NCBI GenBank assembly: GCA_028285945.1
Contig: JAPYNE010000033.1
Coordinates: 27,964-91,963, forward strand
Direction: 5' to 3'
From: Gammaproteobacteria bacterium
GTDB taxonomy: Bacteria > Pseudomonadota > Gammaproteobacteria > Steroidobacterales > Foliamicaceae
Length of the DNA: 64,000 bases
In this document: piece by piece, positions 18,835 to 19,929 of the stretch
How the letters are laid out: the number at the start of each line of letters is the position of its first letter
Position numbering within the stretch: position 1 is the first letter of the stretch
Program-made: the position numbers and the translations under genes
Notes under the pieces: model-generated
What the model saw: only the letters and a program-made list of their open reading frames with translations
What the model was told of the DNA's origin: nothing
The model's database searches: none

Positions 18835-19929
18835 TCATCCAAACAGTTTGCGCGCCGTTTCGATCCCGTCCGCCAAGCGGTCGATTTCATCGCGCGTGTT
18901 GTAGAAGGCGAACGAGGCGCGCGAGGTTCCCGGCACGCCGAAGCGGTCCATGAGCGGCATGGCGCAGTGATGGCCCGCCCGTATGGCCACGCCTTCATGG
19001 TCCAGGATGGTGCCGAGGTCGTGCGGGTGAATATCCTTCATCACGAACGAAACCACCGCCGACTTGGGCGCGGCCGTGCCGATTATCCGCAATCCGGGAA
19101 TGCCGCTCAGCCGTTCGGCGGCGTATTCCAGCAGCTCGTGTTCGATCGCGGCCAGGCGCTCAAGTCCGTGGGCCGCGAGGTAGTCCATGGCCGCGCCCAG
19201 CGCGATGGCGCCCGCAATGTTGGGCGTGCCGGCTTCGAATTTGTGCGGCGGCGCGTTGTAGCGGGTGCCGTCGAAGCGCACTTCCAGGATCATTTCGCCG
19301 CCGCCCAGAAACGGCGGCATTTCCTCAAGCCAGGGGCGCATTTCCGCCACCGGATTGATAACGCCCATGGCGTTGGAAACATGGGTCACGGCAATCAGCT
19401 TGAGGTTGCGGTTGACCAGCCGCCCAAACGCTTTCAGGTCCAATGCTCCGGAATCCAGCACCGGCGCCACCCGGAGGCGCGCGCCGGTGCGCTCGCAGAG
19501 CTGCTGCCAAGGCACGATATTGGAGTGGTGCTCCATGTGCGTGAGCAGGATTTCCGAATCCGCGCCCATGCGCTTGTCCATGCAGCGGGCCACCAGGTTG
19601 ATCGACTCGGTGGCGCCTCGGGTGAACACGATTTCCTCGGCCGAGGCGGCGTTCAGCCACGCGCGGGTCCGTTTCCTTGCGCCTTCGAAGGCCGCGGTCG
19701 CTTGGTCCGAGCGGGTATGCAGGCCGCGGTGGACATTGGCGTGCATTTCCACTTCGTAGCGGCGCAGCGCATCCATCACGGCCTGCGGCCGCTGCGTGGA
19801 GGCGGCGTTGTCGAGGTAGGCCAGAGGCTTGCCGTTCACCTGCGTGGCCAGCGCCGGAAAATCGGCCCGCAGATCGGTGATGCGGGTTGCCTGCGCAGGG
19901 CGCGGGAGTGTTTCGGCGGCGGCGCTCAT
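18835..19929 (-). CDS. sufS: Cysteine desulfurase SufS homologue carrying an in-frame ~52-aa internal deletion (possible pseudogene)
   Basis: LDNAASTQRP, THVSNAMGV, HKFEAGTPNIAGAI and RAGHHCAMPLM are present. The segment that normally holds the SGHK PLP-lysine is absent (..INPVAEM|RPWLEEMPPFLGGGEMI..). Confidence 0.85.
   Translation of the reverse strand: MSAAAETLPRPAQATRITDLRADFPALATQVNGKPLAYLDNAASTQRPQAVMDALRRYEVEMHANVHRGLHTRSDQATAAFEGARKRTRAWLNAASAEEIVFTRGATESINLVARCMDKRMGADSEILLTHMEHHSNIVPWQQLCERTGARLRVAPVLDSGALDLKAFGRLVNRNLKLIAVTHVSNAMGVINPVAEMRPWLEEMPPFLGGGEMILEVRFDGTRYNAPPHKFEAGTPNIAGAIALGAAMDYLAAHGLERLAAIEHELLEYAAERLSGIPGLRIIGTAAPKSAVVSFVMKDIHPHDLGTILDHEGVAIRAGHHCAMPLMDRFGVPGTSRASFAFYNTRDEIDRLADGIETARKLFG

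What the first reader, a model, noticed from the sequence alone, without database searches (positions are those of the whole stretch)
19300..19380. sufS lacks the ~52-residue segment that carries the PLP-binding lysine (clean in-frame deletion)
Aligned by eye to E. coli SufS, the sequence runs ..THVSNAMGVINPVAEM|RPWLEEMPPFLGGGEMI... E. coli has ..[86 protein letters not shown]... The missing block contains the SGHK Schiff-base lysine and part of the PLP pocket. The catalytic-Cys loop (GHHCAMPLM) is retained. The predicted protein is 364 aa rather than ~410. The rest of the suf operon looks intact. Three explanations are possible: the desulfurase is dead and sulfur comes from another enzyme, this is a recent lesion, or it is an assembly artefact.
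Basis: partly seen in the sequence, partly recalled or inferred. Interest (0 to 1): 0.6.

Follow-up and report, generated by a model that had tools for sequence, protein, structure and literature searches.

The report
Assembly dropout inside an intact sufS
The deposited genome really does lack the 159 bases of sufS that encode the cofactor-binding lysine, but independent assemblies of the same sponge sample contain those bases, so this is a flaw of one assembly (or at most a rare variant) and not a dead enzyme.

Summary
The sufS ORF (18835-19929, minus strand, 364 aa) lacks 53 codons (159 nt) exactly between window bases 19340 and 19339. In E. coli SufS numbering the missing residues are I187-K239, which include D200, Q203, S223, H225 and the Schiff-base lysine K226.

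The gap is not a property of the organism as sampled:
- Logan contigs of five sponge-metagenome runs from one study carry the missing DNA. Four contigs hold 159 extra letters at that junction. The fifth run's two contigs break inside the block.
- The contigs of one run match 98 kb of the MAG with no substitution.
- A JGI contig is 100.000% identical over 16.3 kb of flank and carries the same block.
- The restored protein is 417 aa, has DGAQ...SGHK, and passes the SufS model cut-off (558.9 vs 475.1 bits). The truncated form scores 448.2.
- All 17 congeners that have sufS carry the block.
- The 364-aa form occurs once among about 15 billion proteins, in this MAG record.

The breakpoint has no microhomology, and the block is nowhere else in the MAG. 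Contigs cannot distinguish a pure assembly error from a rare real allele that the assembler picked up. That needs the raw reads. Interest is low.

The parts
18835..19929 (-). sufS as written in this assembly: 364 aa, lacking 53 internal codons
   Evidence: TIGR01979 scores 448.2 bits, below its 475.1 cut-off, and matches in two stretches.
19339..19340 (.). Junction where 159 nt present in other assemblies of the same strain are absent. There is no microhomology and the placement is unambiguous.
   Evidence: read laying reports 'skips 0, 159 letters between' for X1, X3 and X4 and X22. blastn of L020-L025 against the window gives the same junction.
18234..18830 (-). sufU (198 aa), the sulfur acceptor of a SufS/SufU-type system, with a lineage-specific low-complexity loop insertion
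   Evidence: TIGR01994 scores 99.8 bits, above its 92.5 cut-off. The gene is present unchanged in Logan and JGI contigs. Insert length varies across the genus.
17655..18206 (-). sufT
   Evidence: TIGR03406 scores 262.8 bits, above its cut-off.
19935..20924 (-). sufD (329 aa)
   Evidence: TIGR01981 E-value 5e-52, 176.9 bits, below its 222 cut-off. The length is the same in all strains' contigs.
20921..21682 (-). sufC
   Evidence: TIGR01978 scores 330.2 bits. Gene call of 253 aa in L021.
21679..23136 (-). sufB
   Evidence: NF008773 scores 888.6 bits. Gene call of 485 aa in L021.
23171..23629 (-). Rrf2-family SUF regulator
   Evidence: TIGR02944 scores 146.2 bits, above its cut-off.

Best explanation
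The organism's sufS is a normal 417-aa type II (SufS-family) cysteine desulfurase with the PLP lysine. It is encoded in an ordinary sufR-sufBCD-sufS-sufU-sufT operon, where it would pass persulfide sulfur to SufU. The 159-nt gap exists only in this deposited MAG contig. It is an error of that assembly or its post-processing, for example a wrong join or a path through a few aberrant molecules, and it does not represent the consensus genotype of the sampled population. Shown: the block is present in every independent assembly, including those of the same strain. Inferred: that the junction was produced by the assembly process and not copied from real minority DNA.
For: (1) Run X1 (Logan contig SRR10406112_306, 16,698 nt, depth 34.7) matches window 18200-19339 and 19340-20400 with 0 mismatches and holds 159 letters between them. 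(2) X1's contigs match the MAG with no substitution over window 1-18300, 20300-40000 and 40000-59900, apart from short repeat elements where the contigs break, and over two further 20-kb stretches of other contigs. The only other difference is one base in a poly-G run. X1 is therefore the same strain and very probably the source sample. (3) JGI contig Ga0131715_100025 (L021) is 100.000% identical over 10,590 + 5,710 nt of flank, and its block is identical to X1's. (4) X3, X4 and X22 (other samples, about 1% divergent strains) and three further JGI contigs (L020, L024, L025) all carry the block. X2's two contigs break inside it, and their loose ends translate to [13 protein letters not shown]... 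and ...[13 protein letters not shown]. (5) The restored protein P0121 equals P0001 at every shared residue except the junction Met, and contains DGAQ and SGHK. P0002, which is 99% identical, scores 558.9 bits on TIGR01979 in one stretch. (6) The 364-aa form is a singleton cluster from the NCBI MAG record only, while the 417-aa form has 7 variants in JGI, Logan and NCBI. (7) No contig of any run laid spans the deletion junction. X1 holds 0.97 of sampled words of the gene, which fits a lack of only the junction words. (8) All 17 congeners with sufS carry the block.
Against: De Bruijn-graph assemblers do not normally invent a junction that no read supports, and this junction has no repeat or microhomology that would explain a collapse. 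Some molecules with the junction may therefore have existed. Only contigs, not raw reads, could be laid, and contigs drop rare variants. The MAG is otherwise accurate: this is the one dropout in about 98 kb compared, so it is not a generally sloppy assembly. How the MAG was assembled is unknown, and a search for the accessions found no paper.
Confidence: 0.7

Rival explanations
1. A real but minority deletion allele. A subpopulation of the symbiont in the source sponge carries a 159-bp in-frame deletion that kills SufS. The assembler followed that shortcut path, while the majority genotype is intact.
For: The junction is clean, in frame and has no repeat, so junction-bearing reads probably existed if a k-mer assembler was used. 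A second assembly-specific deletion exists nearby: the JGI contig L021 lacks window 13393-13629, 237 nt flanked by CTGCGCG, which the MAG and Logan X1 both have. This hints at structural heterogeneity in the sample, or at chimeric library molecules. Two IscS-type desulfurase genes elsewhere in the genome (contigs C66 and C61, both with the S-x-HK lysine motif) could in principle buffer a loss.
Against: No contig with the junction exists in any of the runs laid. Being in frame has a 1-in-3 chance. The gene is intact in every strain and congener. Library chimeras would explain junction reads equally well.
Confidence: 0.22
2. A real, fixed deletion in this strain. SufS is catalytically dead, a pseudoenzyme or young pseudogene, and sulfur for Fe-S assembly comes from the IscS-like paralogs.
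For: The deposited sequence reads that way, and other cysteine desulfurases exist in the genome.
Against: The strain with no substitution against the MAG across 98 kb carries the block in two independent assemblies, Logan and JGI. The contig with the block has the same depth as its flanks and is the path both assemblers retained. The 364-aa form is seen nowhere else.
Confidence: 0.04
3. The shortened protein is still a working PLP enzyme that uses a lysine elsewhere.
For: None was found.
Against: The missing block removes the residues aligned to E. coli D200, Q203, S223, H225 and K226 together with their secondary-structure elements. The SufS model score falls below its cut-off. No homologue in about 8000 scored hits shows this architecture except the MAG's own entry.
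Confidence: 0.01

Closest known systems
E. coli SufS (CsdB, b1680), type II cysteine desulfurase; PDB 1jf9, 1i29, 1c0n
   Same: 48-50% identity over the full length. The fold family and the catalytic-Cys loop GHHCAMPLM are the same. In the restored 417-aa form the VDGAQ and SGHK PLP motifs are the same too.
   Different: The window's record lacks the block aligned to E. coli residues 187-239. The partner here is SufU, not SufE.
SufS/SufU systems of the Bacillus subtilis type; PDB 5xt5, 5j8q SufS
   Same: sufS is followed directly by sufU in a sufBCD operon. phmmer E-value is 1e-97 to B. subtilis SufS.
   Different: The host is a sponge-associated gammaproteobacterium with a Xanthomonas-type Rrf2 SUF regulator and sufT. 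Its SufU carries a variable low-complexity loop insert.
Internal dropouts and mis-joins in metagenome-assembled genomes
   Same: A segment present in the reads' contigs is absent from one assembly, and the rest of the contig is base-perfect.
   Different: There is no repeat at the breakpoint to explain a collapse, so the exact origin is unresolved: assembler path, scaffold join, chimeric molecules or a rare allele.

Membership tests
SufS family cysteine desulfurase (TIGR01979; class V aminotransferase, PF00266) | Whole-protein score above the curated family cut-off (475.1 bits) in one continuous match | tested here: not met
   P0001 (the window's record) scores 448.2 bits in two stretches. The restored form P0002 scores 558.9 bits in one stretch, residues 19-417 on profile 2-403.
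SufS family cysteine desulfurase | PLP Schiff-base lysine in the SGHK motif (E. coli K226), plus D200 and Q203 | tested here: not met
   These residues are absent from the window's ORF. They are present as DGAQ...SGHK in P0121 and P0002, encoded by Logan and JGI contigs of the same strain.
SufS family cysteine desulfurase | Catalytic cysteine in the GHHCA loop (E. coli C364) and the C-terminal Arg (R379) | tested here: met
   C364 and R379 are invariant columns in alignment A3.
SufS family cysteine desulfurase | Location in a suf operon next to a sulfur acceptor (SufE or SufU) | tested here: met
   Gene order is sufR-sufB-sufC-sufD-sufS-sufU-sufT.
SufS family cysteine desulfurase | PLP binding and cysteine desulfurase activity | not testable with these tools
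   This needs expression and assay of the 417-aa and 364-aa forms.
Genuine genomic deletion (pseudogene or pseudoenzyme) | The junction is supported by the sequencing data of the sample, and the intact form is absent or in the minority | tested here: not met
   All contigs of X1, X3, X4 and X22 and the JGI assemblies carry the block, and X2's contigs end inside it. No contig spans the junction. Raw reads were not available, so a rare allele is not excluded.

The most novel reading that the evidence does not exclude
The junction is real DNA. A minority lineage of the sponge symbiont carries an in-frame 53-codon deletion that removes the PLP site of SufS and persists beside the intact majority. 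It would live on its IscS-type desulfurases, and it would be one of several structural variants segregating within a single host individual.
Probability: 0.2. Interest if true: 0.25.

Novelty: not a real feature. Interest (0 to 1): 0.07.

Why it matters
There is little biology here. The symbiont has an ordinary, intact SUF pathway. The practical points are that the 364-aa cysteine desulfurase in the public MAG record is misleading, and that striking in-frame losses of catalytic segments in MAGs should be checked against the reads or independent assemblies before they are read as pseudoenzymes. An earlier, untested note reports a similar internal gap in this genome's 23S rRNA. That gap deserves the same check.

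Tried and rejected
- Repeat-mediated collapse: the block's borders share no microhomology, and the longest direct repeat within 550 nt is 9 nt and not at the borders. Rejected.
- Block misplaced elsewhere in the MAG: blastn and tblastn of the block against all 66 contigs find only weak paralog hits in the two IscS-like genes. Rejected.
- Junction-word search of public runs (64 nt, only 3 sampled words): four runs hold 1 of 3 words. Three of them (X3, X4, X22) carry the block when laid, and the fourth (X21) lays only a conserved part of another contig. The search is uninformative on its own.
- Generally defective assembly: about 98 kb compared with X1's contigs shows only this dropout and one homopolymer base. 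The MAG is not riddled with errors.
Contig C2:16001-24000 reads N, withheld. I did not pursue it.
- Literature search for the run and JGI accessions, to learn the assembly method: no paper found.
- Mobile element, intron or intein reading of the block: rejected, because the block is the conserved catalytic core in all homologues.

Full report
**What is in the window**

The minus-strand ORF 18835-19929 encodes a 364-aa protein, P0001. It lies in a complete suf operon:
- Rrf2-type SUF regulator, 23171-23629
- sufB, 21679-23136
- sufC, 20921-21682
- sufD, 19935-20924
- sufS
- sufU, 18234-18830
- sufT, 17655-18206

**The gap is real in this record**

- Against PDB sequences, P0001 matches SufS structures at E-values from 1e-108 to 1e-97. 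The match is always in two stretches that skip about 50 residues of the target.
- Pfam PF00266 hits the gene as two pieces, profile positions 2-161 and 218-371.
- A MAFFT alignment with E. coli K-12 SufS, fetched from NC_000913.3, places the gap at E. coli I187-K239, 53 residues.
- That block holds VDGAQ (D200, Q203) and SGHK (S223, H225, K226). From established knowledge of E. coli SufS/CsdB, these include the Schiff-base lysine and contacts to the pyridine ring of PLP.
- The catalytic-Cys loop and R379 are retained.
- The truncated protein scores 448.2 bits on TIGR01979, under the 475.1 cut-off.

The true size is 159 nt / 53 codons.

**Is it a property of the organism?**

The window is part of an 88%-complete MAG of 66 contigs. 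It comes from a sponge-associated gammaproteobacterium.

*Relatives.* All 17 congeners in which sufS was found carry the block. The nearest are 88-93% identical in protein sequence, and their hits split around an extra 159 nt.

*Sequencing runs.* Public runs holding the gene are sponge metagenomes of one study. I laid their Logan contigs on window 18200-20400:
- X1, X3 and X4 each have one long contig that covers both flanks and has 159 letters between window 19339 and 19340.
- X1's flanks have 0 mismatches.
- X2 (depth about 4) has two contigs that break inside the block. Their loose ends translate to the expected SufS sequence.
- A fifth sample, X22, shows the same block.
- No contig in any run spans the deletion junction.

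*Protein databases.* The protein search found a 417-aa cluster of 7 variants from JGI, Logan and NCBI. The 364-aa form is a singleton from the NCBI MAG record. Variant P0121 is identical to P0001 at every shared residue and carries [54 protein letters not shown] in the gap.

*Contigs encoding P0121.* These are:
- the X1 Logan contig (16,698 nt), L023
- JGI contig Ga0131715_100025, L021

L021 is 100.000% identical to the window over 10,590 and 5,710 nt on either side, with the 159-nt block between. The block is identical in L021 and L023.

*Same strain.* X1's contigs match the MAG with no substitution across the rest of the window, apart from short repeat elements where the contigs break, and across two 20-kb stretches of other contigs. 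The only other difference is one base in a poly-G run. X1 is therefore the same strain and almost certainly the source sample. Two independent assemblers kept the block as the path through its reads.

**Conclusion**

The consensus genotype has an intact, ordinary type II cysteine desulfurase. The restored form scores 558.9 bits on TIGR01979 in one stretch. The gap is specific to this assembly.

**What could not be settled**

I could not determine how the gap arose.
- The breakpoint has no microhomology and no nearby repeat.
- The block is not misplaced elsewhere in the MAG.
- The MAG is otherwise accurate over the roughly 98 kb compared.
- A k-mer assembler needs junction-bearing reads. Either a few aberrant or chimeric molecules, or a real low-frequency deletion allele, existed, or a scaffolding or merging step joined two contig ends.
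- The JGI contig has its own assembly-specific loss nearby: window 13393-13629, 237 nt bordered by CTGCGCG, is present in the MAG and in Logan X1.
- Only contigs, not raw reads, were available for these 2019 runs, and contigs drop rare variants.

My estimates are:

| Explanation | Probability |
|---|---|
| Artefact | about 0.7 |
| Real minority allele | about 0.2 |
| Fixed real deletion | under 0.05 |

The genome holds two other cysteine desulfurase genes of the IscS/NifS type, both with the lysine motif:
- C66, 392 aa
- C61, 495 aa with a C-terminal extension

It also holds SerC, GcvPB and a cystathionine-synthase-like protein among its PF00266 and related hits. This matters only under the rival readings.

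**Earlier notes**

A first-reader note (e1-5152907) reports that this genome's 23S rRNA lacks about 260 nt of essential sequence. That could be a second dropout of the same kind. The stretch is withheld: C2:16001-24000 reads N, and RF02541 found nothing. I did not test it and do not count it as evidence.

**Verdict**

The deletion is not a real feature of the organism. Interest is low.

Noticed in passing
window 17530-17539: A poly-G run (poly-C on the coding strand) differs in length between assemblies and strains. It is 10 in the MAG and in JGI contigs L020 and L021, 11 in the Logan contigs of X1 and X4, and 12 in X3. It sits 3 nt upstream of a TTG that would start a canonical lipoprotein signal peptide (MKRRWIIVALLSLLWGC) of the 1366-aa LRR / Big_2 / M66-peptidase gene (13503-17603, minus strand). 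Possible readings are a phase-variable tract or homopolymer noise.
   Followed up: partly
window 18500-18650 (inside sufU, 18234-18830, minus strand): SufU carries a low-complexity insert of about 45 aa with an imperfect direct repeat, between the VTVYLR strand and ISFEAEGC. The insert is present in all assemblies. Across the genus the same loop varies from almost nothing to about 80 aa, including tandem GKEDTLPP-type repeats (L013). It is a hypervariable loop in an otherwise conserved sulfur-transfer protein.
   Followed up: partly
window 13393-13629: JGI contig L021, which is otherwise 100% identical, lacks these 237 nt, and the borders share CTGCGCG. The MAG and the Logan X1 contig both have them. 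The piece covers the 3' end of the LRR/M66 gene and the 3' end of the convergent alpha/beta-hydrolase gene. This is a second assembly-specific indel in the same sample.
   Followed up: partly
window 16605-16777: In the strains of X3 and X4, 173 nt of the LRR region of the large M66-peptidase gene are replaced by 29 other letters. This indicates LRR-repeat variation between sponge individuals.
   Followed up: no
window about 7931-8540, 24899-25555, 27527-28183, 37382-38038, 46100-46240, 52616-53279: These are short intergenic stretches where Logan contigs break and summed word depth jumps from about 35 to 200-1000. They are multi-copy repeat elements.
   Followed up: no
genome contig C2:16001-24000: This stretch reads N (withheld). 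An earlier first-reader note says the 23S rRNA of this genome lacks about 260 nt of the peptidyl-transferase region. If true, it may be another assembly dropout like the sufS one.
   Followed up: no
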